Under the pieces are notes generated by a model. It had not been told where the DNA came from. It saw only the letters and a program-made list of their open reading frames with translations, and ran no database searches. From positions 1,472,001 to 1,536,000 of the forward strand of contig CAUVXB020000002.1 in NCBI GenBank assembly GCA_963555825.3: 64,000 bases of DNA, written 5' to 3'. The number at the start of each line of letters is the position of its first letter. The first letter of the stretch is position 1. This DNA comes from Alphaproteobacteria bacterium (GTDB taxonomy: Bacteria > Pseudomonadota > Alphaproteobacteria > JAAXGF01). The translations under genes and the position numbers were made by a program. This document shows positions 31,277 through 52,590 of this stretch, piece by piece.

Positions 31277-31519
31277 GGCGCCGACGATTAGATCGATGGC
31301 CACCGGCTTTGCACCGCGCCTGAGTGCGCCCTAGAAGCAATCGGCTGCCCAATCGGAAAGCGATGTCCGCTCACCGCTTGGAACCGGACGTCGGAGACGA
31401 GGTCGCTCGATGTCTCCTTATATGAGGCGTTTGCTGTCAAGGTGGATTTAATCTACGCCACATGATCGTCTCTTCCATTGGTTATGGCTTTGTATCCAGG
31501 GCGGGTCTTGCGATGAGTT

Positions 31520-31700
31520 CCGTGTTTCGTGCGAGTGATCGCATCACCTTATATCCGGCAGCTCCGATCCGGCTTGCCACAATGCTGTATACATGGACCA
31601 TCACAGGACGGGGATGGGACTAATCTTGTGGACGGCACCTTCGCCAAGGAGACATGCAGTCACACATCCAACCTGCCAACAAGCGTTCCCATCGGGGAAT
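31520..31700 (-). ncRNA. Predicted bridge/seek RNA of IS110-A (ends approximate)
   Basis: Target loop guides AUGUCUCCU / CCACAAG and donor loop guides ACAGCAUUG / AUAUAAG, each pair around an internal hairpin. Confidence 0.8.
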
Positions 31701-31734
31701 GAAGCCCGTTAGAACGCTGAGCTGATCCGCAGTC

Positions 31735-32868
31735 CTATTTGACGACAGCACCCACCGGGATCAGCCCGGTTTCCAGATACCGCCAAAGCGCGATCGCCAG
31801 TTTGCGGGCCAGGGCGACGATCATGACGCGCCTGATGCGCCCCTTCTGACCTTGGGTGCGGTCATGGAACCACTGGGTCAGAGCGCTATCGGGTTGATGG
31901 CGGACCCAAAGCCATGCGGCTTCGATCATGGCAACCCGTGCCAGCCGATTGCCCGCCTTGGAGATGCCTTGGCTGCGGCGCCCGTCGCCGCTGTCATAGG
32001 CACTGGGCGTGATCCCGATATAGCTTGCCACCTGTCGGCGATTGGCGAACTGGCGATAATAGACTTCCCGTGCGAGCGTCGTGGATAAGGCCGGGCCGAG
32101 GCCCTTTAAGCGCAGCAGCTGGTGACGCTTGCTTTCCGTGGCCACACACGGTGTCGGCGCTTGATCACGCTCACGCTCGACCTCGACGATCTGCGCTTGG
32201 ACCTGGGCCAGTCTCGCGATCTCCCGCGCGATCTCGCGGCCGAGACGGTCCGGCAGGGGTCGGCCGTCTCCGGTGACCAGCGCCGCCGGTGTCAAGGTCT
32301 TGTAGCGCGCCTTGACATTGATGCCGCGAATGCCCTGACCGAATAGCAGACCCTTGATCCGGTTGATGTGGGCGGTTCGCTCGCGGACCAATCGGTCACG
32401 TTCCCGATGAGAGCGGCGAAGGTCCTCCTCCGCGACGCTCGGAATCACCACCATGGAGCAGACATGACGCTCGCCGCGGCACCAGGCGATCAGCGTATGA
32501 AGAATATTCTCGACATCGATGCGGTCGGTCTTCACCCGCCGCGCCCGGCGGTTGACCCGCAAGCTGGCCGGCTCCATGACCAGACACTCGATGCCGCGCT
32601 GCTCGAGGAACCGCGCCAACCAGAAGCCGTCGTAGCCGGCCTCGTAGCACAGCGTTATCGTCGGCGTTCGACCCGTCACCTTGACCACCCGGTCCCGCGC
32701 CGCGTCCAGCTTGGCCATCAGTCCTTCAGCGTCGCCGCCCTTGATCGGATGCAAGCTCGGATTGCCCCGCCCCGGAGCCTGGATCGCCAAAAGCCAGCTG
32801 TTCTTGCTCAACTCCAGTGCCGCATAAATAGCGTGTTCATTGGAGGTCGATACCGGAAACTGTGCCAT
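31735..32868 (-). CDS. IS110-family recombinase (E-E-D-D variant)
   Basis: Identical to 28324-29457 except last residue. Confidence 0.92.
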   Translation of the reverse strand: MAQFPVSTSNEHAIYAALELSKNSWLLAIQAPGRGNPSLHPIKGGDAEGLMAKLDAARDRVVKVTGRTPTITLCYEAGYDGFWLARFLEQRGIECLVMEPASLRVNRRARRVKTDRIDVENILHTLIAWCRGERHVCSMVVIPSVAEEDLRRSHRERDRLVRERTAHINRIKGLLFGQGIRGINVKARYKTLTPAALVTGDGRPLPDRLGREIAREIARLAQVQAQIVEVERERDQAPTPCVATESKRHQLLRLKGLGPALSTTLAREVYYRQFANRRQVASYIGITPSAYDSGDGRRSQGISKAGNRLARVAMIEAAWLWVRHQPDSALTQWFHDRTQGQKGRIRRVMIVALARKLAIALWRYLETGLIPVGAVVK

Positions 32869-33027
32869 CGTGTCGCTCCTTCTGATCGAGGTTGAAATAA
32901 TCGAAGGAGCTTGAGGCTGCGTCCTTCAGCCTCATAGCATCTTGTGATGCTGTGGACGGCTCCACCGCCGGCATCGCAATGTGCCATGGAGGTTGTTTGA
33001 TAACCGCCAATAGGGGAGCCGCCCAAG

Positions 33028-34047
33028 ATGGAAGTTACCACGATCGGTGTTGATCTTGCGAAGAACGTTTTCCAGGTCCACGGAGTTGACGATGAGGGAA
33101 CCGTGGTCGTCCGCCGTCAGTTGAGGCGGCGTCAGGTGCTGGCCTTCTTCGAGAAACAGCCGCCCTGCCTGGTTGGTATGGAGGCATGTGCGACCGCGCA
33201 TTACTGGGCGCGGGAGATCGCGGCGCTTGGGCATGAGGTCAAGCTGATGCCGCCGCGCTATGTGAAGCCCTACGTGAAGCGGAACAAGAATGACGCTGCC
33301 GATGCGGAGGCTATTTGCGAGGCCGTCACGCGCCCGACGATGCGCTTTGTCGCGGTGAAGAGCGTCGAGCAGCAGAGCGTTCTGATGCTGCACCGAACGC
33401 GCGAGCTTCTGGTCCGCCAGAGAACCATGCTGGTCAACGCTACGCGGGCGCACATGGCGGAGTTCGGGGTGGTGGCGCGAACCGGGTTGCCGCAGGTCAA
33501 GGAGCTGCTCGCGGTGATCAGCGATGAGGCGGATGAGCGCATTCCGCCCCTGGCGCGGACTTGCCTGGAAGGGCTGGCGCGGCAGTTGCTGTCGCTGGAG
33601 CGGGAGATCGTCGGCGCTGAGAGGCGTATCCACGCCTGGCACCGGACGAACGAAGAGAGCCTGCGTCTCGAAACCACACCCGGCATCGGACCGATCACGG
33701 CGAGCGCGCTGGCATCTTCGATTGCCAATCCGTCGATCTTCAAATCGGGCCGCTCAATGGCCGCTTGGATCGGGCTGGTGCCAAGACAGAACTCGACCGG
33801 TGGCAAGGAGCGCATGGGGCGGATCTCCAAGCAGGGCGATCAATACCTGCGCTGGCTGCTGGTCGCCGGCGCCATGACGGTCATCCGCCACGCCAAGCGA
33901 CGCGGCACGACCGATCCATGGCTTGCCAACATCATCGCCGACAAGCCGACCAAGGTCGCGGCCGTGGCGCTGGCCAACAAGAACGCCCGCATTGCCTGGG
34001 CGCTTCTGAGACATGGCGGAACCTATCGCAGGCCCGCGACGGCCTAG
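33028..34047 (+). CDS. IS110/IS1111-family DEDD recombinase
   Basis: IGVDLAK, MEAC, KNDAADAEA, PRQNSTGGK, ISKQGD, ALANK. Confidence 0.94.
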   Translation: MEVTTIGVDLAKNVFQVHGVDDEGTVVVRRQLRRRQVLAFFEKQPPCLVGMEACATAHYWAREIAALGHEVKLMPPRYVKPYVKRNKNDAADAEAICEAVTRPTMRFVAVKSVEQQSVLMLHRTRELLVRQRTMLVNATRAHMAEFGVVARTGLPQVKELLAVISDEADERIPPLARTCLEGLARQLLSLEREIVGAERRIHAWHRTNEESLRLETTPGIGPITASALASSIANPSIFKSGRSMAAWIGLVPRQNSTGGKERMGRISKQGDQYLRWLLVAGAMTVIRHAKRRGTTDPWLANIIADKPTKVAAVALANKNARIAWALLRHGGTYRRPATA

Positions 34048-34089
34048 GCCGACGAAAACAAGGCGTTCACGAGTTTGGCGGAGTGTAAG

Positions 34090-34260
34090 TGACGTAATGC
34101 AAAATCGGTCGAACCGAGGATCGGGAAAACCCGCTATAGCCACGGCGCCTCGAGCGCGTGCTTATGACTGGGACCCGACCCCGCGGATCGCATTAGGGCC
34201 AGCGGCCATGTACGCCGCACCAAAAGGCCGGACACATGGCAGCACCCGACCAGCTTGCAT
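34090..34260 (+). ncRNA. Predicted seek/bridge RNA of IS1111-B (ends approximate)
   Basis: Candidate guides CUAUAGCCA/CUUAUG and AUCGCAUUA/ACACAUG; ACACAUG equals the donor junction. Confidence 0.65.
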
Positions 34261-34307
34261 CAACGTCACAAAATCTCTTGCCAACAGGGAGCCGTCCACA
34301 CATGACC

Positions 34308-34469
34308 CAGGCTGTGTAAAAACCGCCCCCGAGCGCTATTGGCACGATTTTCTCTAACTTCTCGAATTTCTAAACTCAACAAAATCAACATCTTATCAGA
34401 GGGCACTTTAGAAGAATTGACCGAGCACTCTCCTTTTAGTGGTATTTTCCGACGTTTTTACACAGCCTG
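34308..34469. mobile_element. IS1182-derived MITE (162 bp)
   Basis: TIR caggctgtgtaaaaac/gtttttacacagcctg near-identical to IS1182 ends; gacc/gacg flanks; AT-rich interior. Confidence 0.85.
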
Positions 34470-34488
34470 GACGCGGAGCGGTCATTGG

Positions 34489-34662
34489 CTAGGCGGCCGC
34501 CGCACTGCGCGAGATGCTCTTAACCTGGGCCGCGCAACGCGGGCACAGCCGGTGCCCGGGATGGTCGCTGAGAAACTTAGTGTTGCCCAGGCAGTTCGGT
34601 CCTAAGCAAGCGCGCATCTTGCGCTGCCTGAAATCCGGCTCGGGCTTGGCACTGGTCATCAT
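34489..34662 (-). CDS. Small 57-aa zinc-finger-like protein (absent from ORF track)
   Basis: MMTSAKPEPDFRQRKMRACLGPNCLGNTKFLSDHPGHRLCPRCAAQVKSISRSAAAA; C-x4-C..CxxC. Confidence 0.6.
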   Translation of the reverse strand: MMTSAKPEPDFRQRKMRACLGPNCLGNTKFLSDHPGHRLCPRCAAQVKSISRSAAAA

Positions 34663-34889
34663 CTAGCCTGGATTAATATGAGTGGACATGTCCCTGGGGT
34701 GTGTTCCCCACGCTTTCGGCAAACATAGCATAGATTGCGGGTGGGGTGGGGGGGCGGGCACACTGATTGTCCAGTTACCGCTCAAAAGCGGACGCCCAGC
34801 GTGTGAGCCGCCGATGTCTGGTTTTGATCCAGACTGTGTAAAAACGTCGATGGTGTTATGATTCTCTCGTGCTTTGGCGGGAGGGTCTG

Positions 34890-36332
34890 ATGAAGCGTTT
34901 TGTCGAGGGTGTCGATCGCAGCCAGGGCACGTTGTTTCCGGAGCGCCTGGAAGACTGGATCGGCGACGACAACCCGGTTCGGGCGATCGACGTCTTCGTC
35001 GATGAGCTCGATCTTGGCGGCCTCGGGTTCGACCGGGTCGAGCCGCTGGCGACCGGCAGGCCGGCCTATCATCCTTGCGATTTGTTGAAGCTCTACATCT
35101 ACGGCTATCTCAACCGGGTTCAGTCGAGCCGTCGGCTCGAGAGGGAGGCCGGGCGCAATGTGGAAGTGATGTGGCTGGTCGGCCGGCTGGCGCCGGATCA
35201 CAAGACGATCGCCGACTTCCGCAAGGACAACGGCCGTGCGATCCGCAAGGTCTGCGCCCGGTTCGTCGCGCTGTGCCGGCAACTCGGGCTGTTCGCCGAG
35301 GCGAGCGTGGTGATCGATGGCTCGAAGTTCAAGGCGGTCAACAGCCGGGACAGGAACTTCACGCGGGCCAAGATGGCGCGGCGGGTGGCGCAGATCGAGG
35401 AGAGCGTTGCGCGCTATCTGGACCAGTTGGACAGCGCCGACCGGCAAGAGCCGTCGCTGGCGCGCACGACCAAGACGACTCGTCTGGCCGACAAGATCGC
35501 GATCCTCAAGGAGGAGATGCGGCGCCTGAAGGCGCTTGAAGTCGAGCGGCGTGCGAGCCCGGACCAGCAGATCTCTCTGAGCGATCCCGATGCCCGCTCG
35601 ATGGCGACGAGCGGCCGGGGTTCCGGCGTGGTCGGCTACAACGTTCAGGCCGCCGTCGACACCAAGCACCACCTGATCGTCGCCCACGAGGTGACCAATC
35701 AGGGCACCGACCGCGCCCAGCTCTCAGCCATGGCGAAGCGGACCAAGGCGGCTCTGGAGACCGACGAGTTGGATGTCGTTGCCGATCGCGGCTACTACAA
35801 CGGCAAGGAGATTCTGGCCTGCGATGAGGCCGGCATCACCGTCACATTGCCTAAGCCGCTGACCTCTGGAGCCAAGGCCAAGGGCCGCTTCGGCAAACAG
35901 GACTTCGTCTATCTGGCCGCCGACGATGTCTATCGCTGCCCGGCCGGCGAGCGTTTGGTCTACCGCTTCACCAGCCAGGAGAGGGGGCTGAGCATGCGGC
36001 GCTACTGGACCAACGCCTGTCAGGGATGCGCCATCAAGCATCGCTGCACCACGGCCAAGCAGCGCCGCATCACCCGCTGGCAGCACGAGCATGTTCTCGA
36101 GGCCGTCGAGAGGCGGCTCGACGAGCACCCGGAGGCGATGCGTCGGCGGCGCGAGACGGCCGAGCATCCCTTCGGCACCATCAAGTCCTGGATGGGCGCG
36201 ACGCATTTCCAGACGAAGACGCTGAAACGGGTGAGGACCGAGATGGCCCTGCACGTGCTGGCCTACAATCTCAAGCGCGTCATGAACATCACGGGCATCG
36301 ACCCGCTGATCGCGGCGATGAGGACCGCATAG
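34890..36332 (+). CDS. IS1182-family transposase
   Basis: GRPAYHP, SSRRLE, PDHKTIADFR, IDGSK, ADRGY, EHPFGTIK. Confidence 0.93.
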   Translation: MKRFVEGVDRSQGTLFPERLEDWIGDDNPVRAIDVFVDELDLGGLGFDRVEPLATGRPAYHPCDLLKLYIYGYLNRVQSSRRLEREAGRNVEVMWLVGRLAPDHKTIADFRKDNGRAIRKVCARFVALCRQLGLFAEASVVIDGSKFKAVNSRDRNFTRAKMARRVAQIEESVARYLDQLDSADRQEPSLARTTKTTRLADKIAILKEEMRRLKALEVERRASPDQQISLSDPDARSMATSGRGSGVVGYNVQAAVDTKHHLIVAHEVTNQGTDRAQLSAMAKRTKAALETDELDVVADRGYYNGKEILACDEAGITVTLPKPLTSGAKAKGRFGKQDFVYLAADDVYRCPAGERLVYRFTSQERGLSMRRYWTNACQGCAIKHRCTTAKQRRITRWQHEHVLEAVERRLDEHPEAMRRRRETAEHPFGTIKSWMGATHFQTKTLKRVRTEMALHVLAYNLKRVMNITGIDPLIAAMRTA

Positions 36333-36703
36333 GCCTCTCTGCGCCGCAAATTGCGCCCATATCCGGCCAAATCGCAGCTCACACCGGCGCCAGCCGGCCG
36401 ACAGGTCCGCACGAGTGGCGAAAATCCTTAATCCCGGAATACCCGCCGCGACGGATCATCGAAGCCAAAGACGCGCCGTACAGATCACGCAGCAAACGTT
36501 CTTATACCAGTGAGCGCCTGAATTGACTCTCGGGATATTCATTGATGGCGGATGATGGCGGATTGTGATTCTATGGTCTCCCACCAGATGTGGGGGATGT
36601 CATGGGATCAGCACTCAAGATACGGGATGATTTGACGCCTTTGGAGCTTCGGCGCTGGGCTCGCGTGGAATCGTACGGTCGAGCGGCGGCGCGGGCCTAT
36701 GGG

Positions 36704-38078
36704 GAGCTATTGTCAAAAGTTGTGTATGGGCTGATCATGCGGCGGCGCGATCCTGGCGTTCTCCATCTACGAATTTGACGCCGCGAATGATCTCGGCGAG
36801 ATGGTTCGATCCATCGAGTTTTCTCCATTTTCTCTGAGCGCACTGGCATAGTTTGAAGACCATGGCCATCGCCGTCTTGCGCGACAGGCAGCCCTTGGTC
36901 CGGTAGGTGCGCAGACGAACCGTGGCGAACGTGCTCTCGATGGGGTTGGTCGTGCGTACATGCTTCCAGTGCTCGGCGGGGAAGTCGTAGAACGTCAGCA
37001 GGACGTCGCGGTCCTTGGCCAGGCAGGCCGCGGCCTTGTCGTACTTCGGCCCGTAGGCTTCCAGGAAGAAGTCGAAGGCGCTCTCGGCATCCTTCCTGGT
37101 TTCGGCCATCCAGATGTCTTGCAGGCGCCCCTTGGCTTTCTTTTGCAGACCCTTGGGCAGCTTGTTCAAGACGTTGCCCGTCTTGTGAACCCAGCAGCGT
37201 TGCTCGCGGGCGCCTGGGTAGACTTGGCGGAGCGCCTTCCAGAAGCCGAGCGCGCCGTCGCCGAGCGCCAGTTGCGGACCCATTTCAAGGCCGCGCCGCT
37301 TGAGATCGAGCAGAACTTCGAGCCAGGACTGCTCACTTTCGCGATAGCCGTCGGCGATGGCGATCAGTTCCTTCTGTCCCTTGTCCGTGGCCCCGACGAT
37401 CACCAGGATGCACTGCTTCTCTTCCTCCATGCGGGCGCTGAAATAGATGCCGTCCACCCAGAAATAGACGTAGCGCTTGGCCGTGAGGTCGCGCCGTTGC
37501 CAGCGCTCCGCCTCAACCCCCCAGACCTCTTTCAGCCGGGTGATCGTGGAGGCCGAAAGCCCCGGCGCGGAGCTCCCCAGGAGCGCCGCCAAGGCTTCCC
37601 CGAAGTCGCCGGTGGAAATGCCCTTCAGATACAGCCATGGCAAAAGGTCTTCCAGGCTCTTGGCGCGGCGCAGATAGCGCGGCAGGATCGCCGACGTGAA
37701 GCGGATGGCGCCGTCCCCCCGGTCCCGCACACGGGGTTGGCGCACGCTCACCGGGCCGATCCCGGTCTGGATGAAGCGTTCCGGCAGATATCCATTGCGG
37801 ACAACCCGGCGGCGGCCGGCGGCGTCAACAAGCGCCGCATGGCTACCCAAAAACACGGAGACCTCGGCCTCAACGGCTTGGGCCAACAACTCGCGAGCTC
37901 CAGCTTGTAGGACTTCCGTCAACGGATCTTTCTGAAAATCAGATGGGTTTTGAAAAGCAACAACGGTATTCTCTTTCATGGCGTATCCTTCCTTGGCTTA
38001 GCTCAAGTGGTGACATCAACAATCACCAGGATACGCCGCCTTCATTTCAACGCCGTACACAAGATTCGGTTATAGCTC
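36704..38078 (-). mobile_element. IS256-family element copy 1
   Basis: Ends gagctat/atagctc; 9-bp TSD gcctatggg. Confidence 0.93.
36735..37979 (-). CDS. IS256-family transposase
   Basis: RNGY, WVDGIY, GDGALGFW, QRCWVHK, TTNPIES. Confidence 0.94.
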   Translation of the reverse strand: MKENTVVAFQNPSDFQKDPLTEVLQAGARELLAQAVEAEVSVFLGSHAALVDAAGRRRVVRNGYLPERFIQTGIGPVSVRQPRVRDRGDGAIRFTSAILPRYLRRAKSLEDLLPWLYLKGISTGDFGEALAALLGSSAPGLSASTITRLKEVWGVEAERWQRRDLTAKRYVYFWVDGIYFSARMEEEKQCILVIVGATDKGQKELIAIADGYRESEQSWLEVLLDLKRRGLEMGPQLALGDGALGFWKALRQVYPGAREQRCWVHKTGNVLNKLPKGLQKKAKGRLQDIWMAETRKDAESAFDFFLEAYGPKYDKAAACLAKDRDVLLTFYDFPAEHWKHVRTTNPIESTFATVRLRTYRTKGCLSRKTAMAMVFKLCQCAQRKWRKLDGSNHLAEIIRGVKFVDGERQDRAAA

Positions 38079-38860
38079 GCCTATGGGATCGCGAATGCTT
38101 TGGAGGAGATGCCCCGGGCTGATGCCGCGCGGCTTGCGGGGATGGATCGCCAAACGCTTCGCGACGCGGTTGTTCGTTACAATGCAAAGGGATTGGAGGG
38201 GCTTCACGACCGTCCAAAGGGCTACTCGCCGCGGCGGCTGACGGCAGACGAGGAAGCGGCGCTGGCGGCGGTCATCATCGCCGGGCCGGAGCCTGAGCGC
38301 GACGGGGTTTGCGCCTGGACCCGGGCCGATCTGTGCCGCTGGCTGGAGGAGCGCTTCGCCAAGACCTACCACCCCTCGAGCATGACCCGGGTTCTACGGC
38401 GGATGGGATTTTCCCGCCAGAAGGCGCGCCCGAGCCACCCGCGAAGGGACGCCGAAGCGCAGGAGCGCTTCAAAAAAGGGGGCTTCGCGACATCCTGAAG
38501 GCGACCGCCGCGGCGCATCCCGACAAGCGCCTACAGCTGTGGTTTCAGGATGAAGCGCGCGTCGGCAACAAGGGCCGGGTGTGTCACCGGTGGTGGCGCA
38601 GGGGCGAGCGTGCCCCCGGGACGCGTCAAATCGGCTACCAGTGGGCCTACATCTTCTCCGCCGTGCGCCCGGACACCGGCGACGACGTCACCCTGGTGAT
38701 GCCGAGCGTCAACGCCAAGGTCATGGACCTGTTTCTCGCACACTTCGCCGATACCCTGGACGTAAGCGTTCGTTCAGGCCGTGGAATGGGTCCCGTCAAG
38801 CGCATCTCCCACGTTGAGGCGAGGCCCCACAAGGTGCTGTCTTTCTGCTGGTAACGCGAT

Positions 38861-41524
38861 TTGCCATGCGCTATCGTCGTGCGCATGGTGGTTCTGGACG
38901 AGGATTTTGGCACCAACCTGACGCTGGTCGAGGGTAATGGCGGGGTCCGGTTGTCCCCCGTGTCGGTGCCGGAGCACGCGCCGCGCGACTGGCGGTCACA
39001 GTGTGAGCGGGAACGGGCGCGGGCGGACGCGGCCGAAGCGCGCGCGGAAGAGCTGCGCTGGGCGGAAGTGGCCGCCCGCAGCGATGGCGGTTCGTGGAAG
39101 TCTCGGTTCAAGGCCTGCCGGCGCAGGCTGAGTGAGGCCGTCGAAGAGACGAAGGAAGCCCGCCGCACGGCAAGGGACGTGCCGTCCTTGCAGGCGGAAG
39201 TGGCGCGCCTGGAGACGCTCCTTTCTGAAGCCGGCATCGCGTCGGCCTTCGATACGGCCGGGGCGCTGCGCAAGGAGAACGCCCGGCTGCGCAAGGCCCT
39301 GGCGGCATCGAAGGCCCGTGAGGGCGCGACCGGGCCGTGGCCCGCTCCGCCCCGGCGGCGCACCGTCCTGGAGCCTTCCCCGGACCAGAAGGAGACCGTC
39401 AGGTCGCTTCGCACGGAACTCCGCCGGCTCGACAAGGAGGTGGTCCGGCGGGACAAGGAGAACGCCCGGCTGAACACGCGCCTCGACCAGGAGAAGGAGA
39501 GGACGGAGCGCATCAGGGAGACCGCGAAGAAGCTGTCCAGCGAGTCCCTTCGGCTCCACCGGGAGGTGAGGATACTGGGCGACGCCGAGGCCCGCGCCCG
39601 GTCGCTGTCCGACGAGGTTTTCTGGCTGCGCCATGCCCTGGAGGTGTCCAAAGCCGGTAAGGAGAAGTTGAAGGCCCGGCTCGCCAAGCTTCGGGCGGCC
39701 GGGGCGATGCTGTCGAAGCTGCCGTCCGACGAGGCTGCTCAACTGCGCGCGGCGTTGAGGCGGTCGCGGCGTCAGAAGACGACGATCGAGGCGCTGCGCA
39801 AGGGCAACGCCCGTCTGCGCAGGACCATGCGGGAGTTGGAGACCCGGAAAGCGGCGCTGGCGGTTCAGCCTGCCAAGCTTCGCGCGATCAGGAAGGCACT
39901 CGAGTCCGAGCTTGCCGGGCTTCGGGCGGTCAGGAAGACGTTGTCGAAGTCGCTGTCCGTTGCAGACGCCGATCTCCGCAGGGCTCTGCGAAGGTCGCGG
40001 CGCCAGAAGGCTACGATCAAGTCGCTGTCCCGGGAGAACGCCCGCCTGCGCAAGGGCGCGAAGACGTCGCGGAACCGGATCGAGACGCTGGAAGTCCAGC
40101 TTGAGAGGCTTCGTGCGACCGGGGCGGTGCTGTCGAGGGCGCTCTACGGCCGCAAGAGCGAGCAGCAGGACAAGCCGGGCTCGGAACACAAGCGCGGCCA
40201 GCAGCGCGGCGCGCCCGGCCACGGCCGCACCCAGCGGCCCGGGCTCGATGAGCGCACCGAAGAGCACAACCCGCCGCCGGATGCGTGCGTCTGCGGCCGG
40301 TGCGGGCAGCCCTATGCGCCGAACGGCGCCGAGGAATCCACCCTCGTCGAGATCGAGGTCAAGGCCTACAAGCGCGTGATCCGCCGTCCGCGCTGGCGCC
40401 GGACCTGCGAGTGCGCGTCGTCGCCCATGGAAGTGTCGGCGCCCCCGGTGCCGCGGCTGTTCCCCAGGACGCTCTACGGGACCAGCTTCTGGGCACGCTT
40501 CCTGTTCGAGCACTGTGCCTGCTTCCGCCCCGTGCACCGCGTTGCCGCGTGGATGTCCGCCCAAGGGCTGACGGTCTCGCCGGGGACGCTGGCCGACAGC
40601 CTGAAGCGGTTCGTGCCGCTGCTCGAGCCGCTGGCCGAGGCGATCCTTGCGCACCAGAACAAGGCGGCGCTGCGCCATGCCGACGAGACCAGCTGGCGCG
40701 TCCAGGAACTTCGCGGGGAAGACCGCTCGAGCCGCGCCTGGCTGTGGGTCTCGGTCAGCAATGACGCGGTCTCTTTCCATATCGACCCCTCGCGCAGCGC
40801 CGAGGCGGCGCAGAAGCTGTTCGGCGACGCTCTCCTCGACACGGTCATCGTCTGCGATCGCTATAGCGCCTACAAGCGACTCGCTCGCCTTCGCGAGGGC
40901 AAAGTGACCCTTGCATTCTGTTGGTCCCATATGCGCCGCGATTTTGTCGAGTGCGCGGCCGGCCAGGTGAGACTGACGGACTGGTGCCAGGGATGGATCG
41001 AGCGGATCGCGTCGGTCTACCGCCTGAACGAGGCGAGGTTGGCTCATTACGACCCCGTGATCAAGCGCCAGACGCCGGCGTTCGACGCGGCGCAGGGCGC
41101 GTTGAAGGCGGCGCTCGACGGCCTGTTCGCGGAGGCCGCCCGGGAGTTGGCCGGCCTGCCGGACCAGGCGCGCCAGGGCAGGGCGCTGCGCTCGCTGCTG
41201 AACCATCGCGAAGGGCTGAGCGTGTTCGTCGACCGCCCGCAGGTGCCTCTGGATAACAATCGCGCCGAAAGATTGTTACGAGGTCCGGCCATAGGGCGAC
41301 GGCTGTCGTTCGGTTCCGACAGCGAGGACGGCGCCAGGTTCACGGCGATCATGTACTCGGTGGTGGGCACGCTCTCGATGAATGGCATCGACATCCTGAG
41401 CTGGCTGGACACGTGGCTCGCAGCGTGCGCGGAGAACGATCGCAAACCGCCGGACGACCTGTCGCCGTGGCTGCCATGGTCGATGAGCGAGGAGCGCAGG
41501 CGCGAACTCATGGCGCCGGCGTGA
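38861..41524 (+). CDS. IS66-family transposase with very long coiled-coil N-terminus
   Basis: LYGRKSE, CGRCG zinc finger, HADET, VCDRYSAY, CWSHMRR, DNNRAER. Confidence 0.9.
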   Translation: MPCAIVVRMVVLDEDFGTNLTLVEGNGGVRLSPVSVPEHAPRDWRSQCERERARADAAEARAEELRWAEVAARSDGGSWKSRFKACRRRLSEAVEETKEARRTARDVPSLQAEVARLETLLSEAGIASAFDTAGALRKENARLRKALAASKAREGATGPWPAPPRRRTVLEPSPDQKETVRSLRTELRRLDKEVVRRDKENARLNTRLDQEKERTERIRETAKKLSSESLRLHREVRILGDAEARARSLSDEVFWLRHALEVSKAGKEKLKARLAKLRAAGAMLSKLPSDEAAQLRAALRRSRRQKTTIEALRKGNARLRRTMRELETRKAALAVQPAKLRAIRKALESELAGLRAVRKTLSKSLSVADADLRRALRRSRRQKATIKSLSRENARLRKGAKTSRNRIETLEVQLERLRATGAVLSRALYGRKSEQQDKPGSEHKRGQQRGAPGHGRTQRPGLDERTEEHNPPPDACVCGRCGQPYAPNGAEESTLVEIEVKAYKRVIRRPRWRRTCECASSPMEVSAPPVPRLFPRTLYGTSFWARFLFEHCACFRPVHRVAAWMSAQGLTVSPGTLADSLKRFVPLLEPLAEAILAHQNKAALRHADETSWRVQELRGEDRSSRAWLWVSVSNDAVSFHIDPSRSAEAAQKLFGDALLDTVIVCDRYSAYKRLARLREGKVTLAFCWSHMRRDFVECAAGQVRLTDWCQGWIERIASVYRLNEARLAHYDPVIKRQTPAFDAAQGALKAALDGLFAEAARELAGLPDQARQGRALRSLLNHREGLSVFVDRPQVPLDNNRAERLLRGPAIGRRLSFGSDSEDGARFTAIMYSVVGTLSMNGIDILSWLDTWLAACAENDRKPPDDLSPWLPWSMSEERRRELMAPA

Positions 41525-42402
41525 CCGGCGCGATCGAGTGCCGTTATTACGGCCGCGACTTCACCGCCGGGGAAATGGCGCTGCTGCGCGCGCTGATCGC
41601 CGGGCCGCCGCCGTTGAACCGCCATATGCTGTCGAAGGAGTTCTGCCGGCGCATCGGCTGGTTCAAGCCCGACGGCGGCCTCAAGGACATGATGGCCAGG
41701 GTCGCCATGCTGGCCATGCACAGGGACGGCCTGATCGCCCTGCCGGCGCCGCAGGGACGGCAGAACCGGCCCGGGCCGATCGTCTTCGGGCCGGACACCG
41801 AAGCGCCGCTGTTCCCGGCCCCGACGACCCTCGACAAGGTCCGCCCGCTCGACCTGCGCCCCGTCGTGCGCGGCACCCGGGAGAGCAAGCTCTGGAACGA
41901 GTTCGTCGCCCGCTACCACTATCTCGGATACAAGACCCTGGTCGGCGCCCAGATGCGCTACGCCGTCCACGACCGCGACGGCTGGCCGCTCGCCATGCTC
42001 GGCTTCTCCACCGCCGCGTGGAAGCTCGCCCCGCGCGACAACTTCATCGGATGGACACGGCAGACGCGCGAGAAGAACCTTCCCTTCGTGGTCGACAACC
42101 CGAGATTCCTGATCCTGCCCTGGATCAATATCCCCAACCTGGGTTCGCACATCCTGGCCATCATCCGCCGGCGCCTGCCCGATGACTGGACCGAGCGCTA
42201 CAACACCACGCCCGTGCTCATCGAGACCTTCGTCGAGACCCCGCGCTACACCGGCGCCGTTTACAGGGCCTCCGGCTGGACCCGCGTCGGGACCACCCAG
42301 GGGCGCGGGCGCTACGACCGGGACAGGCAGTCCGACAAGCCTAAAAAGGATGTCTGGCTCCGGCCCCTGCGACGGGATTGGAAACGCACCCTCAATCGCT
42401 AA
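41521..42402 (+). CDS. DUF4338 (DruA-related, Mom-like) protein
   Basis: YHYLGY, WKLAPRDNFIGW, NPRFLILPW, NLGSHIL, ETFVE..YTGAVYRASGW..GTTQGRGR; GTGA overlap with transposase stop. Confidence 0.82.
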   Translation: MTGAIECRYYGRDFTAGEMALLRALIAGPPPLNRHMLSKEFCRRIGWFKPDGGLKDMMARVAMLAMHRDGLIALPAPQGRQNRPGPIVFGPDTEAPLFPAPTTLDKVRPLDLRPVVRGTRESKLWNEFVARYHYLGYKTLVGAQMRYAVHDRDGWPLAMLGFSTAAWKLAPRDNFIGWTRQTREKNLPFVVDNPRFLILPWINIPNLGSHILAIIRRRLPDDWTERYNTTPVLIETFVETPRYTGAVYRASGWTRVGTTQGRGRYDRDRQSDKPKKDVWLRPLRRDWKRTLNR

Positions 42403-43009
42403 AATCGGCCGGGGCGAATGGAAACGCCCGCGCTGATTCCACGGCCTGAACGAACGCTTACCCCTGGACCAGGATGCGCACGCCGTCATGATGTGCGACG
42501 GCGCCGGTTGGCACGACGAGCGCGCCCTCACCGTCCCCGACAACGTCACCTTGGCGCTGTTGCCGCCTTACAGTCCCGAACTCAACCCAGTCGAGCGGGT
42601 TTGGCTCTACCTACGCGAACGCTTCCTATCGCTCCGCGTCCTCGACGACACCGAGGCCATCATCGACGCCTGTTGCCAAGCATGGATCGACCTCATCGCA
42701 GAACCGGATCGTATGCGAACCCTCTGCGCCTATCCATGGATCATGAAGGTGATTTCATAGGCTCACTGGTATTACACAGTCTGGACCCAACCCGGACATT
42801 GAGATTTGATTTGCTACCTGGCGATTGGTGCCTACACCGCCGTTTGCTGTATTGGGGTCGAGAGGGTATGTTTGGTCTGTATCTGGCATTGTCTGAGATC
42901 GCTTTCGATGCGAATGGCGTAACGCTGGGCGTCCTCCATAAGGCTGTGGAGAAGGCGACGTATCCCGGCATCGAAATAGAGCTATTGTCAAAAGTTGTGT
43001 ATGGGCTGA

Positions 43010-46143: not shown

Positions 46144-46304
46144 AAGATTCGGTTATAGCTCATCGAAATAGCGCCACCACCACAATCATAATGGAGAGAT
46201 AAATGGGCCCCGATGAGGCCAAGGCCCTCGCCAAGGAGTTTGATTTCGCGGGAGAGATCATCTGTCACCCAAATGCGTAAAACGCTGGTGTCGGGCCGGG
46301 TCGA

Positions 46305-46505: not shown

Positions 46506-46506
46506 A

Positions 46507-46692: not shown

Positions 46693-46735
46693 GACGGGCC
46701 ACCGCCACGATGCTTCGCCAGTTGGTTAGGGATGA

Positions 46736-48199: not shown

Positions 48200-48296
48200 T
48201 GAGACATTGAAAGACAGGCAAGGCGGCGGTTACGACCCCAACACCCAAGGTCACCCGGTATCATCGGCGCGGTACATTAGGTAAGTTGTCGGTCCC

Positions 48297-48578
48297 ATGA
48301 CCAAATCACAACTCATAGAGCGACTGGCCATGCAGAATCCGCACCTCACCCACCGCGAGGTGGATCGCCTCGTCAACGCCATCTTCGAGACGATCGCTGC
48401 TGGTTTGGCGCGGGGCGAGCGTATCGAACTCCGTGGGTTCGGTTCCTTCGCCGTCAAGGAGCAAGCCCCGCGAGTTGGCCGCAACCCGCGTACAGGCGAA
48501 ACGGTACACGTGGCGACGAAGCTCCGCCCCTACTTCAGGAGCGGCAAGGAGATACGCAGACGGATCAACGCCACATAA
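48297..48578 (+). CDS. ihfB: Integration host factor beta-like protein
   Basis: MTKSQLI..IELRGFGSF..GRNPRTGETV..PYFRSGKE. Confidence 0.85.
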   Translation: MTKSQLIERLAMQNPHLTHREVDRLVNAIFETIAAGLARGERIELRGFGSFAVKEQAPRVGRNPRTGETVHVATKLRPYFRSGKEIRRRINAT

Positions 48579-48834
48579 GTGTTTGCGATATTGATCGGTC
48601 GCTGCCAGCAAGCTTGCCTATCCGGTTTACGCCCACACCCACTAGGGCTAGAATGGGCGCAAACCGGATATAGGGGAGCGCGCCATGGATGTTCTCGACC
48701 GCGCCGATCTCCCATTTGAGAACGGCAGAGCAATAATCCCCCACTGAAGCGGCCGGTCGATCCGACTGCGGCGGACCAAAATGGGACCGCGTATAGCCTT
48801 CTGTCAGGGTTGCTCTGACTGGAAGGCGGGGGGG

Positions 48835-50334
48835 ATGTATCGGGTGGAGTTGTACGCACGGGTTCGGCGGGCGTGTCATGTCGAGGGGATGAGCACCCGC
48901 GAGGCCTCGCGGGTGTTTGGTGTAGACCGCAAGACGGTCCGTAAGATGCTGTCGTTCTCGGTGCCGCCAGGGTATCGCCGAAGCGCGCCGCCGAGGCGGC
49001 CAAAGCTGGGTCCGTTCACGGGAATCATCGATCGGATCTTGGAAGACGATCGGACCAGCCACCGCAAGCAACGGCACACTGCGAAGCGCATCTTCGACCG
49101 CCTCCGGGACGAGTACGGTTTCACGGGCGGCTACACCATCGTGAAGGACTACGTTCGTGAGCAGGGGCTTCGGTCGCGTGAGGTGTTCGTGCCACTCTCC
49201 CATTCCCCCGGTCACGCCCAGGCGGACTTCGGCGAAGCGATGGCGGTGATCGGCGGCGCGTTACGGAAGATCCACTTCCTTGCCTTCGACCTTCCCCACA
49301 GTGATGGTTGCTTTGTTGCGGCCTATCCGGCGGAGACGACCGAAGCATTCTGCGATGGCCACAACGCGGCGTTTGCCTTCTTCGGCGGCGTCCCCCGATC
49401 CATCCTGTACGACAACACCAAGCTGGCGGTTGCCCGGATCCTGGGCGATGGGAAGCGGCAGCGAACGCGCGTCTTCACGGAGCTTCAGTCCCACTATCTG
49501 TTCGAGGACAGGTTCGGCCGGCCGGGCAAGGGCAACGACAAGGGCAAGGTCGAGGGACTGGTCGGCTTCATCCGGCGGAACTTCCTGGTCCCCGTCCCGC
49601 GTGCCGAGAGCTTCGCGGCCCTCAACGATGCTCTCGCCGAACAGTGCCGCCGGCGCCAGGCGGCGCGGCTGCGGGGCCACAAGGAGACCATCGGCGAGCG
49701 TCTCGAGCGGGATCGTCAAGTTCTCTTGCCATTGCCGCCTGCTCCCTATGATGCCTGCGATAAGCGCCCTGGACGGGCGAGTTCGCTGTCGCTGGTGCGT
49801 TACCGCAGCAACGACTATTCCGTGCCCGTGGCCTACGGCCACCGTGAGGTGCTCATCCGGGGCTACGTCGATGAGGTGGTGATCAGCTGCGGGGCCGAGG
49901 TGATCGCCCGGCACCGCCGGTCCTACGACAGCGAGGACCTGATCTTCGACCCGCTGCATTACCTGCCCTTGATCGAGCAGAAGATCGGCGCCCTCGACCA
50001 GGCCGCGCCATTGGCGGGCTGGGACCTGCCCGAGGCCTTCATCACTCTGCGGCGGCTCCTCGAAGCTCGTATGGGCAAGGCAGGCAAGCGCGAGTACGTC
50101 CAGGTGCTCCGTCTACTGGAGACCTTCCGGCTCGAGGAGGTCGAGGGTGCGGTCGGCGACGCCCTGCGGCTCGGCGCAATCGGCTTTGATGCGGTGAAGC
50201 ACCTGGTACTGTGCCGCATCGAGCGGCGGCCGCCCAGGCTCAACCTCGACGTCTATCCGTATCTGCCGCGCGCCCGGGTCGCGATGACGTCCGCCAAGTC
50301 GTACATGAGCCTGCTGTCGGGGCTCGGCGCATGA
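48835..50334 (+). CDS. istA: IS21 transposase IstA
   Basis: AQADFG, YDNTK, KGKVE. Confidence 0.94.
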   Translation: MYRVELYARVRRACHVEGMSTREASRVFGVDRKTVRKMLSFSVPPGYRRSAPPRRPKLGPFTGIIDRILEDDRTSHRKQRHTAKRIFDRLRDEYGFTGGYTIVKDYVREQGLRSREVFVPLSHSPGHAQADFGEAMAVIGGALRKIHFLAFDLPHSDGCFVAAYPAETTEAFCDGHNAAFAFFGGVPRSILYDNTKLAVARILGDGKRQRTRVFTELQSHYLFEDRFGRPGKGNDKGKVEGLVGFIRRNFLVPVPRAESFAALNDALAEQCRRRQAARLRGHKETIGERLERDRQVLLPLPPAPYDACDKRPGRASSLSLVRYRSNDYSVPVAYGHREVLIRGYVDEVVISCGAEVIARHRRSYDSEDLIFDPLHYLPLIEQKIGALDQAAPLAGWDLPEAFITLRRLLEARMGKAGKREYVQVLRLLETFRLEEVEGAVGDALRLGAIGFDAVKHLVLCRIERRPPRLNLDVYPYLPRARVAMTSAKSYMSLLSGLGA

Positions 50335-51095
50335 CCGACACACCGCAAGTGCTGCTCGCCCACCACCTCAAGACGCTGAAGCTGCCGACCTTCCTGCGCG
50401 AGTACGACAAGATCGCCCGGCAGTGCGCCTCGGAAGGCGTCGATCACGTCCGCTACCTGTTGAGACTCGCCGAGCTCGAGCTGATCGACCGCGAGCGCCG
50501 CATGGTCGAGCGGCGCATCAAGGCGGCGCGCTTCCCCGTGGTCAAGAGCCTCGACAGCTTCGACTTCAAGGTCATCCCCTCGCTCAACAAGGCGCTGGTC
50601 CTGGAGCTGGCCCGCTGCGAGTACATCGAGCGCCGCGAGAACCTCATCGCGCTCGGCAACAGTGGGACCGGCAAGACCCACATCGCCCTCGGTCTCGGCC
50701 TGGCGGCCTGCCAGAAGGGCCTCTCGGTCGGCTTCATCACCGCCGCCGCGCTGGTCCACGAACTCATCGAGGCCCGCGATGACAAGCAGCTGCTGAGGTT
50801 CCAGAAGAAGCTCGCCACCTACAAGCTTCTGATCGTCGACGAACTCGGCTTCGTGCCGCTGTCGAAGACCGGCGCCGAGCTGTTGTTCGAGGTGTTCAGC
50901 CAACGCTACGAGCGGGGCTCGACCCTGGTCACCACCAATCTGCCCTTCGACGAATGGACCGAGGTGTTCGGCTCCGAGCGCCTCACCGGCGCGCTCCTCG
51001 ATCGCCTCACCCACCACGTCAACATCCTCGAGATGAACGGTGACAGCTACAGGCTCAACCAGAGCCGCAGGCGTCAAACCCCGACTGCTAACTGA
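50331..51095 (+). CDS. istB: IS21 helper ATPase IstB
   Basis: Walker A GNSGTGKT, Walker B IVDELG; ATGA overlap. Confidence 0.94.
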   Translation: MTDTPQVLLAHHLKTLKLPTFLREYDKIARQCASEGVDHVRYLLRLAELELIDRERRMVERRIKAARFPVVKSLDSFDFKVIPSLNKALVLELARCEYIERRENLIALGNSGTGKTHIALGLGLAACQKGLSVGFITAAALVHELIEARDDKQLLRFQKKLATYKLLIVDELGFVPLSKTGAELLFEVFSQRYERGSTLVTTNLPFDEWTEVFGSERLTGALLDRLTHHVNILEMNGDSYRLNQSRRRQTPTAN

Positions 51096-52461
51096 ACCGA
51101 CCACCCAGCCCACGCTTGACCCCGTGGGCCCACAGGTCCCTCCCGCGCGCGCCGCCGCGTCAGCCTGTTGAGGGCACGCCGCGTCGCGCGCGGGGCCCTC
51201 CCGTGGACTACGGGGACAAGCCCGCAGCCGCCAAGCGGTCCCTTCTTACACCGCCGAGGTGGTCCCTTTTTGCTCCGCCATTGACACCCGAGTTCCAGCG
51301 ACTTTTCCCCGATGATGCGGCCTGCGCCGCCTACCTGGAGAAAGCCCGCTGGGGAGACGGCTTTGCCTGCCCGCACTGCGGCACGGCGGGAGAGCCGTTC
51401 CACTTTGAAAACCGCCCTGGCGTCCTGCGCTGCCGCAAGTGCCGCCAGAACACCGGGCTGACGGTGGGAACAGTGATGGAGCATAGCCACACTCCGCTGA
51501 ACGTCTGGTTCTGGGCCGCTTATCTGGTCGCCAGTCAGACGCCCGGCATGTCCGCCGTGCAGTTTCAGCGGCAACTTGGTCTTTCGCGCTACGAGACGGC
51601 CTTTCAAATTCTCCACAAGCTCCGCTCGGGCATGGTGCGGCCCAACCAAGACAGGATCGGTGGACAGCCCAAGAACCATGTTGAGGTGGACGAAACCTGG
51701 GTTGGCGGGCGAACGCGTGGGGAAGGCCGTGGTGTTCACCACAAGGTTCTCGTCTCCTGTGCCATCGAGGTGCGTCATCGAAAGCCGGGCACCAAGCTCG
51801 ACAACCGGAAAGACGGACGCTATGCCGGACGCGTTCGGCTCGCCGTCGTGCTCGACCGTAGCGCCGAGTCGCTCTGTGGGTTCGTCGAGAGCACCGTCGC
51901 GCCGGGATCGCTGATCGTTACTGACGATTGGAGCGGCTATGCTGGCCTCGGTAAGCGCGGCTATGAGCACTTCGCTGTTGCCGAGTGTGGTGATCCAGAG
52001 GTTGCCGAGCAATACCTGCCGATCATCCATCTGGTTTTCGCCAACCTGAAGACGTGGCTGATCGGTATCCACCACGGCGTTAGCCACCAGCACCTACAAG
52101 CCTACCTCAACGAGTTCACCTTCCGCTTCAACAGGCGGTTCTACCCGTTCAACGCCTTCCGCTCATTGCTCGGCATCGCGGGCGACACCTCTGCTCCAAC
52201 CTATGCCGAGCTTTACTCGGGAGAGTGGCGGCACCCTACATGTAGCGGTCATGGGCGTTAACCGGATAGGCAAGCCAGCAAGCAACGAGAAGCCAGACGG
52301 GCGACGCTTGCCGATAAATGTCCGTGACAGCATGTAGAGCGGACCGACGCTCCCAAAGGTGCCCTCTCCAGATCGCCCATAGGGCTGCCACAGACAGCCG
52401 GAAATTCCTCGGTAGCAGCTCGTGTGACCCCAACCAGACCAAGCACCCTCACCGAGGTCGC

Positions 52462-52538
52462 GATGTCTCCTCCTGGCTAGAAGCTGACGTCGAAACACCT
52501 CACGACGGGCGGCCGCTTAGCGCTTGGGAGCGGACATC
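52462..52538. repeat. Double-hairpin repeat R3 (30+16+31 nt), uninterrupted
   Basis: gatgtctcctcctggctagaagctgacgtc-N16-ggcggccgcttagcgcttgggagcggacatc. Confidence 0.7.
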
Positions 52539-52590
52539 GGTACGCCGCGCGCCGGGGACGCTCGGCAACGCGTCTGACCGGCGCCGGCGC

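What the first reader, a model, noticed from the sequence alone, without database searches (positions are those of the whole stretch)
31362..52538. Fixed-geometry double-hairpin repeats separate small genes: possible integron-like cassette array without an integrase in view
Seen: removing the ISs leaves three related sites, R1 (31362-34486), R2 (34766-42800) and R3 (52462-52538). Each is a 31-nt imperfect hairpin (ATGTCCG..CGGACR, loop a(c/g)cgct) and a 30-nt hairpin (GATGTCT.., loop TGRC) separated by exactly 16 variable nt. Lengths are conserved although sequences diverge, and degenerate extra hairpins lie at 52318-52440. Between and around them are short unrelated genes (VOC protein, 57-aa Zn finger, several hypotheticals, IHF-beta), and R3 marks the island edge. 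Inference: structure-defined ssDNA recombination sites analogous to attC or REP, acted on by a trans-encoded tyrosine or HUH recombinase, forming a gene-capture array. I cannot name this repeat family.
Basis: partly seen in the sequence, partly recalled or inferred. Interest (0 to 1): 0.78.

Follow-up and report, generated by a model that had tools for sequence, protein, structure and literature searches.

The report
REP-like repeats used as IS landing pads
The three double-hairpin sites are copies of a short palindromic intergenic repeat scattered through this genome and its relatives, and jumping genes land in one of its loops again and again; this is a known kind of arrangement, not a gene-capture array.

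Summary
R1, R2 and R3 share hairpin A, a fixed linker and hairpin B.

They are not local cassette sites. They belong to a dispersed family: 75 nhmmer hits at E<1e-3 against 0 in a shuffled genome, and 94 hits at E<0.01 in 62 clusters on both contigs. The family is non-coding. It occurs in 10 of 12 genomes searched from the same family.

The genome has no integron integrase, and the sites carry no attC core. No Y1 (RAYT-like) transposase gene has a family repeat beside it. The pairs show no compensatory changes.

Hairpin B's loop is an insertion hot spot. 38 of 75 doublets carry a mobile-element end there: an IS1182-family IS and its MITEs, or IS110/IS1111-type RNA-guided IS. R1 holds three such elements within about 8 bp. 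A contig from public run X1 bridges the empty R1 site.

One IS110-family element (IS-c) carries an 11-nt match to hairpin B in its non-coding region.

The "array" is a REP/BIME-like cluster swollen by nested IS. Verdict: new member of a known kind, modest interest.

The parts
31365..31389 (+). R1 hairpin A core (25 nt)
   Evidence: Read directly. Covered by the covariance-model match 31354-31448 at 50.6 bits.
31410..31418 (+). R1 hairpin B, left arm (ATGTCTCCT). The rest of the loop is split into 32943-32944 (TG) and 34303-34306 (TGAC).
   Evidence: The empty site is seen in a contig of run X1, which joins 31419 to 34470 with GT between.
31419..32942 (-). IS-c, an IS110/IS1111-type element with about 13 copies. 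Transposase at 31735-32868(-), non-coding region at 31419-31734. The non-coding region holds guide-like matches at 31645-31655 and 31625-31631.
   Evidence: NF033542 at 204 bits. Copy number, ends and flanks. The 11-nt match to the target was reached by 0 of 2000 shuffles. Boundaries are placed by the 7/3-bp terminal-extension rule quoted from PMC11187229 and fit the empty site. They carry a 2-3 nt ambiguity.
32945..34302 (+). IS-d, an IS1111-type element with 13-bp subterminal inverted repeats. Transposase at 33028-34047(+).
   Evidence: NF033542 at 351 bits. A joint from 32945 to 34470 in runs X5 and X16 represents a form without IS-d and the MITE, but its side is only 25 letters.
34307..34470 (.). 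164-nt MITE with IS1182-type ends (CCAGGCTGTG...), flanked by a 2-bp duplication, AC.
   Evidence: (about 7 copies). The duplication is deduced from the empty site in run X1.
34471..34486 (+). R1 hairpin B, degenerate right arm
   Evidence: It is contiguous with the left arm in the run X1 contig.
34489..34662 (-). 57-aa small ORF with C-x4-C ... C-x2-C spacing, the only gene between R1 and R2
   Evidence: A paralogue at G000:C2:2551347-2551774 is 85% identical in DNA and lacks an R1-like site on its far side. No Pfam or NCBIfam match.
34769..34793 (+). R2 hairpin A core
   Evidence: Covered by the model match 34758-34844 at 28.1 bits.
34814..34828 (+). R2 hairpin B, left arm and half of the loop
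   Evidence: (inverted repeat I8).
34829..42784 (+). IS1182-family IS (transposase 34869-36332) with three further IS nested in its right end: a 1177-bp IS, a 1365-bp IS and a 3.7-kb element.
   Evidence: NF033551 at 451 bits. Copy numbers and nesting. Left and right ends of about 30 copies.
42785..42799 (+). R2 hairpin B, right arm
   Evidence: (I8).
52462..52540 (-). R3, an uninterrupted doublet (hairpin A, linker, hairpin B) inverted relative to R1 and R2
   Evidence: Model match at 61.7 bits. R3 was one of the 19 sequences the model was built from.

Best explanation
R1, R2 and R3 are ordinary members of a dispersed, non-coding palindromic repeat family of the REP/BIME type.

The unit is two imperfect hairpins, A and B, with related stems (GTCYGCT / AGCRGAC) and a fixed linker. 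Units join head-to-head or tail-to-tail into mosaic clusters of about 110-190 nt.

The family is old. It is shared by several genera, and it decays by point mutation without compensatory changes.

The loop of hairpin B (...T(G/A)(A/G)CC...) is a preferred landing site for several unrelated mobile elements:
- An IS1182-family DDE element and its MITEs insert at TGAC|CC and duplicate AC.
- At least four IS110/IS1111-type elements insert a few bases away without any duplication.

The target recognition of the IS110/IS1111-type elements is inferred to be RNA-guided. IS-c carries, downstream of its transposase gene, an 11-nt copy of ATGTCTCCTTG followed by the complement of CTTGTGG. That is the order published for IS1111-type seekRNAs.

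Repeated insertion into these loops, followed by insertion of IS into IS, inflated a small intergenic REP cluster into the roughly 28-kb IS-dense block. The 'short unrelated genes between repeats' are what remains of normal intergenic architecture.

Shown here: family membership, dispersal, non-coding location, loop occupancy, the empty R1 site in another sample, and the sequence match in the IS-c non-coding region.

Inferred: RNA guidance itself, loop recognition by the IS1182 transposase, and how the repeats themselves spread. The last of these is unknown.
For: Dispersal:
- 75 nhmmer hits at E<1e-3 against 0 in a shuffled genome.
- 94 hits at E<0.01: 27 on C1 and 67 on C2, 47 per strand, in 62 clusters.
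- 73 covariance-model matches at E<=0.01. Only 150 of 7208 first-look candidates were scored.

Non-coding location:
- 41 of 94 hits lie wholly inside an open frame of at least 150 codons, against 2825 of 3000 random intervals.
- Frame periodicity of G+C is 0.16 against 0.36.
- 0 of 62 clusters lie inside a crude gene call.

Mosaic, long-range palindromic clusters are seen.

Relatives: 14 of the 40 other genomes searched have matches, including 10 of 12 in the same family. G001 has 54 matches and G029 has 28. G029 also shows an IS1182-type MITE in the same loop.

Occupancy:
- 38 of 75 doublets with a B arm carry one of four kinds of mobile-element end in the loop.
- 34 of 69 are followed by sequence present in at least 5 copies.
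- The flanks of IS copies differ from one another, while the IS copies are about 99-100% identical.

Empty site: a run X1 contig of 430 nt, with 41 letters beyond the joint, joins 31419 to 34470 with GT between.

IS identities: NF033551 at 451 bits, and NF033542 at 351 and 204 bits.

IS-c guide: the longest exact match between its non-coding region and the target is 11 nt. 0 of 2000 shuffles reach 11, and the maximum of 10 was reached 13 times.

IS-c sites outside REPs share GTCTCCT|TGTG. This points to sequence recognition rather than structure recognition.

Precedents:
- REPs as IS targets for the IS3, IS110, IS4, IS256 and IS5 families (PMC1525189, passages read).
- IS1272 of the IS1182 family targeting inverted-repeat structures (PMC5678879, abstract and section 22).
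Against: - How the repeats themselves spread is unknown, and no transposase is tied to them.
- For IS-d and its two sister sub-families, the matches between non-coding region and target are only 5-8 nt and not significant (shuffle p about 0.07 to 1). RNA guidance is therefore supported by sequence for IS-c only.
- No RNA data were examined.
- Rfam has no model that matches these non-coding regions: 0 matches at E<=1 over 28000-35000.
- Three sites within 21 kb is more than the genome-wide density predicts (about 1 cluster per 97 kb), so some local clustering remains unexplained. Multi-hit clusters are common, however: 22 of 62.
- The joint seen in X5 and X16 has only 25 letters on its short side.
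- The gene calls used for the intergenic test are crude.
Confidence: 0.85

Rival explanations
1. Integron-like cassette array. The double hairpins are attC-like single-strand recombination sites, and the small genes between them were captured one at a time by a trans-encoded recombinase.
For: - The sites have fixed geometry and form hairpins.
- R1 and R2 lie in the same orientation and are separated by a single small ORF once the IS are removed.
Against: - The genome has no integron integrase: best score 79 bits against a cut-off of 265.
- The sites carry no GTTRRRY core.
- R3 is inverted.
- The same repeat occurs in 62 scattered clusters and in other genera.
- The paralogue of the 279-nt segment has the right-hand doublet but no left-hand site.
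- The strain difference at R1 is IS presence or absence, with the flanking genes unchanged.
Confidence: 0.02
2. REPIN/RAYT system. The doublets are REP doublets mobilised by a domesticated Y1 (HUH) transposase encoded elsewhere in the genome.
For: - The genome has 3 PF01797 matches above the cut-off.
- The doublet and inverted architecture resembles REPINs.
- Decay without compensatory changes fits copies made from a master sequence.
Against: - None of the 3 genes has a family hairpin within 1.5 kb by regular expression, or a profile hit within 5 kb.
- With the model run without filters over 6 loci (3 own, 3 from relatives), the best score is 11.4 bits, E 0.15.
- G029 (28 repeats, 93% complete) and G004 (9 repeats, 79% complete) gave no PF01797 match.
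Confidence: 0.08
3. MITE family. The 110-190-nt palindromic composites are non-autonomous transposons moved by a DDE transposase, and the hairpins are their inverted ends and internal palindromes.
For: - Whole composites fold as long imperfect palindromes.
- The family is multi-copy and intergenic.
- No covariation is seen.
Against: - No terminal duplication or defined outer end was found.
- Cluster architecture varies: B-A-B in G001 and B-A'-A-B here. This is more like BIME mosaics.
- None of the 8 IS termini printed from the window resembles the hairpin stems.
Confidence: 0.1
4. The hairpins are extended ends carried by the IS1182-family element itself, not a pre-existing target.
For: Most IS1182-family copies are flanked by them on both sides.
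Against: - The flanks differ from copy to copy, while the IS copies are about 99-100% identical.
- Of the 69 doublets with a B arm, 34 have unique sequence downstream, and 19 uninterrupted doublets were aligned.
- Other IS families use the same loop.
- The empty R1 site exists in run X1.
Confidence: 0.02

Closest known systems
REP sequences and BIME clusters of enterobacteria and pseudomonads (the architecture is recalled from established knowledge; their role as IS targets is from PMC1525189, passages read)
   Same: - Short imperfect palindromes, extragenic, tens to hundreds of copies.
- Clustered in alternating orientation with fixed linkers.
- Hot spots for IS insertion.
   Different: - The sequence family is different.
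- No RAYT gene lies beside any copy.
- About 75-190 copies, depending on the threshold used.
- Two distinct hairpin types, A and B, share one stem.
REP-targeting IS110/IS1111 elements: ISPa11, ISPpu9, ISPpu10, IS621 (PMC1525189 and PMC11187229, passages read; PMC11208160, listing and abstract only)
   Same: - DEDD transposase.
- Long non-coding region downstream of the gene.
- Subterminal inverted repeats.
- No target duplication.
- Insertion at one fixed position of a REP.
- For IS-c, short sequences in the non-coding region match both strands of the target in the published order.
   Different: - Here at least four related elements, aimed a few bases apart, share one loop.
- Guidance is inferred from sequence only, and is significant for IS-c only.
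IS1272, IS1182 family, Staphylococcus aureus (PMC5678879, abstract and section 22 read)
   Same: An IS1182-family transposase that chooses stem-loop (inverted-repeat) targets.
   Different: - IS1272 replaces the target's inverted repeats and leaves no duplication.
- Here both hairpin arms stay in place, the element sits in the loop, and 2 bp (AC) are duplicated.
Integron attC sites with IntI
   Same: Imperfect hairpins of conserved geometry lying between short genes.
   Different: - No IntI in the genome.
- No R-box core in the sites.
- Mixed orientation and genome-wide scatter.
   Same: An IS1182-family element whose copies all land at one position of a palindromic repeat.
   Different: It concerns another genome and another repeat. 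That note reports a T-any-A target, whereas here the element sits at TGAC|CC with AC duplicated. I did not re-examine its DNA.

Membership tests
Integron (attC array with IntI) | An integron-type tyrosine integrase (TIGR02249) in the genome or beside the array | tested here: not met
   The best of 38 matches scores 79 bits against a curated cut-off of 265. All 14 control genomes also gave only sub-threshold matches.
Integron (attC array with IntI) | attC core sites (GTTRRRY at the recombination point) and sites in uniform orientation | tested here: not met
   The five site fragments have no GTTRRRY, apart from one chance GTTGGGT on the minus strand of R2's right arm. R3 is inverted relative to R1 and R2. 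The motif is recalled knowledge, and IntegronFinder could not be run.
REP/BIME-type intergenic repeats | A short imperfect palindrome in many copies, above chance | tested here: met
   75 hits at E<1e-3 against 0 in a shuffled genome. 70.5% of cells are paired, against 34.5-43.5% when the partners are slid.
REP/BIME-type intergenic repeats | Extragenic location | tested here: met
   41 of 94 hits lie in long open frames, against 2825 of 3000 random intervals. 0 of 62 clusters lie inside crude gene calls.
REP/BIME-type intergenic repeats | Mosaic clusters with alternating orientation and fixed spacers | tested here: met
   22 of 62 clusters hold 2-5 hits. Composite palindromes are shown.
REPIN/RAYT | A single-copy Y1 transposase gene flanked by the REPs it serves | tested here: not met
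   The best model score near any of the 6 Y1 genes is 11.4 bits.
IS1111/IS110 RNA-guided IS (for IS-c and IS-d) | A DEDD transposase of the family | tested here: met
   NF033542 at 204 and 351 bits, cut-off 140. PF01548 and PF02371 also match.
IS1111/IS110 RNA-guided IS (for IS-c and IS-d) | A long non-coding region downstream of the transposase gene, subterminal inverted repeats with 7-bp and 3-bp extensions, and no target duplication | tested here: met
   Read. With the 7/3 rule (PMC11187229), the flanks rejoin exactly to the empty site seen in run X1.
IS1111/IS110 RNA-guided IS (for IS-c and IS-d) | The non-coding region holds short matches to both strands of the target | tested here: inconclusive
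   Met for IS-c: an 11-nt and a 7-nt match, with 0 of 2000 shuffles reaching 11. Not significant for IS-d and two sister sub-families. No RNA evidence.
IS1182 family | A transposase matching the family equivalog model | tested here: met
   NF033551 at 451.3 bits, cut-off 270.

The most novel reading that the evidence does not exclude
Hairpin B is a dedicated 'safe harbour'. Unrelated transposition systems have converged on it: one protein-guided (an IS1182-family DDE enzyme that reads a hairpin loop) and several RNA-guided (IS1111-type elements whose guides are tuned a few bases apart on the same loop). In addition, the repeat family itself may be spread by a mechanism that uses neither a RAYT nor any recognisable transposase.
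Probability: 0.2. Interest if true: 0.45.

Novelty: new member of a known kind. Interest (0 to 1): 0.3.

Why it matters
The result removes a tempting false lead, an integron without an integrase, and replaces it with a documented mechanism.

It gives a clean natural example of one hairpin loop serving as landing pad for at least four element types. One site, R1, shows three states across samples: empty, one IS, and three elements.

The IS-c case offers a ready natural pair of guide and target for RNA-guided IS1111-type recombination.

The IS1182-family element adds a family to the list of REP-seeking IS. That family is absent from the five listed in PMC1525189. The same scan has, however, already noted one such case in another genome.

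For annotators, it shows that a REP cluster can seed a 28-kb IS pile that looks like an island.

Tried and rejected
- RNAalifold on the 19-sequence alignment predicted no consensus structure at all. I therefore imposed the two hairpins by hand.
- The Rfam scan of 28000-35000 at E<=1 gave 0 matches.
- A full-text search for four short motifs of the repeat returned only unrelated primer lists among the 25 of 1,196 papers shown. That is the only search behind the statement that I found no description of this family. Supplements were not searchable.
- A loose regular expression for hairpin B gave only coding-region noise.
- A first attempt to find the IS1182 right end by motif printed nothing.
- A synteny check against 77 loci from other genomes showed only the sulfite-reductase gene and its convergent neighbour conserved. 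Nothing was learned about the VOC, IHF or small ORF genes.
- No genome of the same genus was among those searched. Strain-level cassette turnover could be addressed only through the public-run contigs.
- Guide searches for IS-d-type elements were not significant.
- The claim that R3 marks the island edge is not supported. The IS block ends at 52274-52275, 187 nt before R3, and no family copy lies at the left edge near 23985.
- A look-up of earlier notes by the sequence of R3 found nothing.
Full report
**Setting**

The window is G000:C2:1472001-1536000 of a 6.04-Mb, two-contig, 65% G+C genome. The nearest genomes in the public set are unnamed alphaproteobacterial MAGs. A housekeeping-type protein is at most about 71% identical to theirs.

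The genome is extremely rich in insertion sequences. Mapping the window against the whole genome shows that 23985-52275 is almost entirely multi-copy DNA:
- a 1177-bp IS, about 74 copies
- a 2570-bp IS, about 83 copies
- a 1365-bp IS, about 37 copies
- an IS1182-family element, about 30 copies
- two IS110-family elements, about 13 and 7 copies
- a 3.7-kb element, about 9 copies
- others

Only five short stretches inside this block are single- or two-copy:
- 30505-31402, a VOC/glyoxalase gene
- 34473-34768, a small ORF present in two copies
- 42789-42977
- 46166-47020
- 48207-48609, IHF-beta

**The observation**

R1, R2 and R3 are real and related. Each has three parts:
- hairpin A, with a 25-nt core GTCCGCTT-9 nt-AAGCGGAC
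- a linker of fixed length
- hairpin B, (A)TGTCYGCT-loop-AGCRGACAT, whose loop contains T(G/A)(A/G)CC

A covariance model was built from 19 uninterrupted copies, R3 among them. Run over the window without filters, it finds R3 at 61.7 bits, R1 at 50.6 and R2 at 28.1. Nothing else in 64 kb has E below 0.1 except an opposite-strand echo at R1.

A 430-nt contig of public run X1 runs from the VOC side to window 31419, then GT, then on from 34470 for 41 letters. This gives the uninterrupted loop ...CTCCTTGTGACGCGG....

**What the sites are**

They are not special to this locus. The left flanks of the roughly 30 copies of the IS1182-family element carry the same doublet elsewhere in the genome. Those flanks differ from one another, while the IS copies are about 99-100% identical.

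Counts from a profile seeded with 19 such flanks and iterated:
- 75 hits at E<1e-3 and 194 at E<10, against 0 and 8 in a block-shuffled genome
- at E<0.01, 94 hits: 27 on C1 and 67 on C2, 47 on each strand, in 62 clusters, of which 22 hold 2-5 hits
- 73 covariance-model matches at E<=0.01, with 150 of 7208 first-look candidates scored

A loose regular expression was not enriched overall, at 262 hits against 315 in a shuffle. The signal is confined to the 25-nt length class, with 144 hits.

The repeats are non-coding:
- 41 of 94 lie wholly within an open frame of at least 150 codons, against 2825 of 3000 random intervals.
- Their codon-position G+C periodicity is 0.16 against 0.36.
- 0 of 62 clusters fall inside a crude gene call.

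Units combine into larger imperfect palindromes of about 110-190 nt, B-linker-A'-36 nt-A-linker-B here. This is the mosaic habit of BIMEs.

The family is old. 14 of the 40 other genomes searched have it, including 10 of 12 of the same family. G001 has 54 matches and G029 has 28. G001 shows cleaner B-A-B triplets. G029 shows the same doublet with an IS1182-type MITE in the same loop.

**Structure or sequence?**

With the two hairpins imposed, 70.5% of cells pair, against 34.5-43.5% when the partners are slid. Covariation is no better than shuffles: 328 of 500 shuffles reach the observed pairing, and 385 of 500 reach the covariation score.

The hairpins therefore reflect descent from a palindromic consensus. 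Selection for structure is not demonstrated.

**Tests of the cassette idea**

- No integron integrase: best score 79 bits against a cut-off of 265.
- No attC core.
- R3 is inverted.
- The only 'cassette' bounded by two sites is 34487-34765, which holds a 57-aa ORF with C-x4-C...C-x2-C spacing. Its paralogue at C2:2551347-2551774 is 85% identical and has the right-hand doublet. On the other side it abuts the terminator region of an ordinary gene, with no hairpin.
- Between samples, R1 differs by IS content only. It is empty in X1. A form with IS-c but without IS-d and the MITE is seen in X5 and X16, though that joint has only 25 letters on its short side. The window carries all three elements.

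**Tests of the REP/RAYT idea**

The genome has three Y1-transposase matches. None has a family hairpin within 1.5 kb or a profile hit within 5 kb.

The model was run without filters over these three loci and over the three Y1 loci of relatives. The best score is 11.4 bits. G029 and G004 have the repeats but gave no Y1 match.

**Why the IS are there**

The loop of hairpin B is a hot spot. 38 of 75 doublets with a B arm carry one of four kinds of mobile-element end in the loop:

| End type | Ends lying directly 3' of a doublet |
|---|---|
| IS1182 type 1 | 26 of 62 |
| Second, related type | 7 of 18 |
| IS1111-type left-end motif | 3 of 53 matches |
| IS-c left end | 2 of 12 |

By a different measure, 34 of 69 doublets are followed by sequence present in at least 5 copies.

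The IS1182-family element (NF033551, 451 bits) and its MITEs have ends CCAGNCTGTG. Comparison with the empty R1 site shows insertion at TGAC|CC with AC duplicated. The IS1182-family member IS1272 is reported to choose inverted-repeat structures, but it replaces them (PMC5678879, abstract and section 22).

The two IS110-family elements in R1 (NF033542, 204 and 351 bits) have long non-coding regions downstream of the transposase gene and subterminal inverted repeats. Applying the published 7-bp and 3-bp terminal extensions (PMC11187229) gives:
- IS-c at 31419-32942
- IS-d at 32945-34302

The residual letters then rejoin exactly to the empty site, with no duplication.

Sister sub-families of IS-d sit in the same loop at CA|TAGCC or TTA|TGA.

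**IS-c guide**

The non-coding region of IS-c contains CAAGGAGACAT at 31645-31655. This is the reverse complement of the hairpin-B arm plus one loop base. CTTGTGG lies 20 nt away, at 31625-31631.

The 11-nt match was reached by 0 of 2000 shuffles. In the transposase's orientation the top-strand complement comes first, as published for IS1111-type seekRNAs.

IS-c copies outside REPs sit at the same GTCTCCT|TGTG. Eight or nine of them lie at one position inside the 2570-bp IS. The choice is therefore made by sequence.

For the IS-d group the matches are 5-8 nt and not significant.

REPs as IS targets, with IS110 the family most represented, were described in PMC1525189.

**Conclusion**

The finding is a REP/BIME-like cluster that has been used again and again as a landing pad. 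It was then buried under IS inserted into IS.

It is a new member of a known kind.

How the repeats themselves spread remains open.

Noticed in passing
window 34164-34304; G000:C1:169693-170172, C1:2233826-2234568, C2:1402875-1403993, C2:2097841-2099586: The last ~140 nt of IS-d, which is its right end including part of the non-coding region, is present in about 25 copies. It forms irregular tandem arrays of partial right-end fragments at several loci, spaced ~100-150 nt apart. No explanation yet.
   Followed up: no
window 26459-30496 (2570-bp IS) with IS-c at about 28091-29529; also 48717-51286: Eight or nine of about 13 IS-c copies sit at one identical position (GGTCTCCT|TGTGG) inside copies of the 2570-bp IS. 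The pair may therefore now spread as a unit. The window's nested copy lacks its first ~100 nt. The 'large inverted repeat' 27000-30496 / 48717-50745 is simply two copies of this IS in opposite orientation.
   Followed up: partly
window 34489-34662 (-) and G000:C2:2551347-2551774: A 57-aa ORF with C-x4-C ... C-x2-C spacing has a paralogue 85% identical in DNA, with the cysteines kept. There is no Pfam or NCBIfam match. Both copies have a doublet with an IS1182-family insertion at the same loop position upstream.
   Followed up: partly
window 38762-42461: A 3.7-kb element with about 9 copies and perfect 26-bp terminal inverted repeats carries a long ORF (38861-41524, 887 aa) with four ~65-nt internal repeats. 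It was not identified.
   Followed up: no
L109 (G029:C109:11046-14137): A genome placed in a different family of the same class carries near-identical doublets (28 matches) and the same IS1182-type MITE in the hairpin-B loop. Either the repeat plus its parasites moved horizontally, or the placement understates the kinship.
   Followed up: no
window 30400-42975 in runs X1, X5, X15, X16: Near-identical DNA of this locus occurs in public runs of several studies, including sponge metagenomes and three coded organisms. IS content at R1 differs between them.
   Followed up: partly
window 52591-53325 (+) versus 53178-55322 (-): A conserved gene downstream of the sulfite/nitrite-reductase-like gene runs convergently to it, and as read here its frame overlaps the reductase frame's 3' end by ~150 nt. 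Start and stop choices need checking.
   Followed up: no
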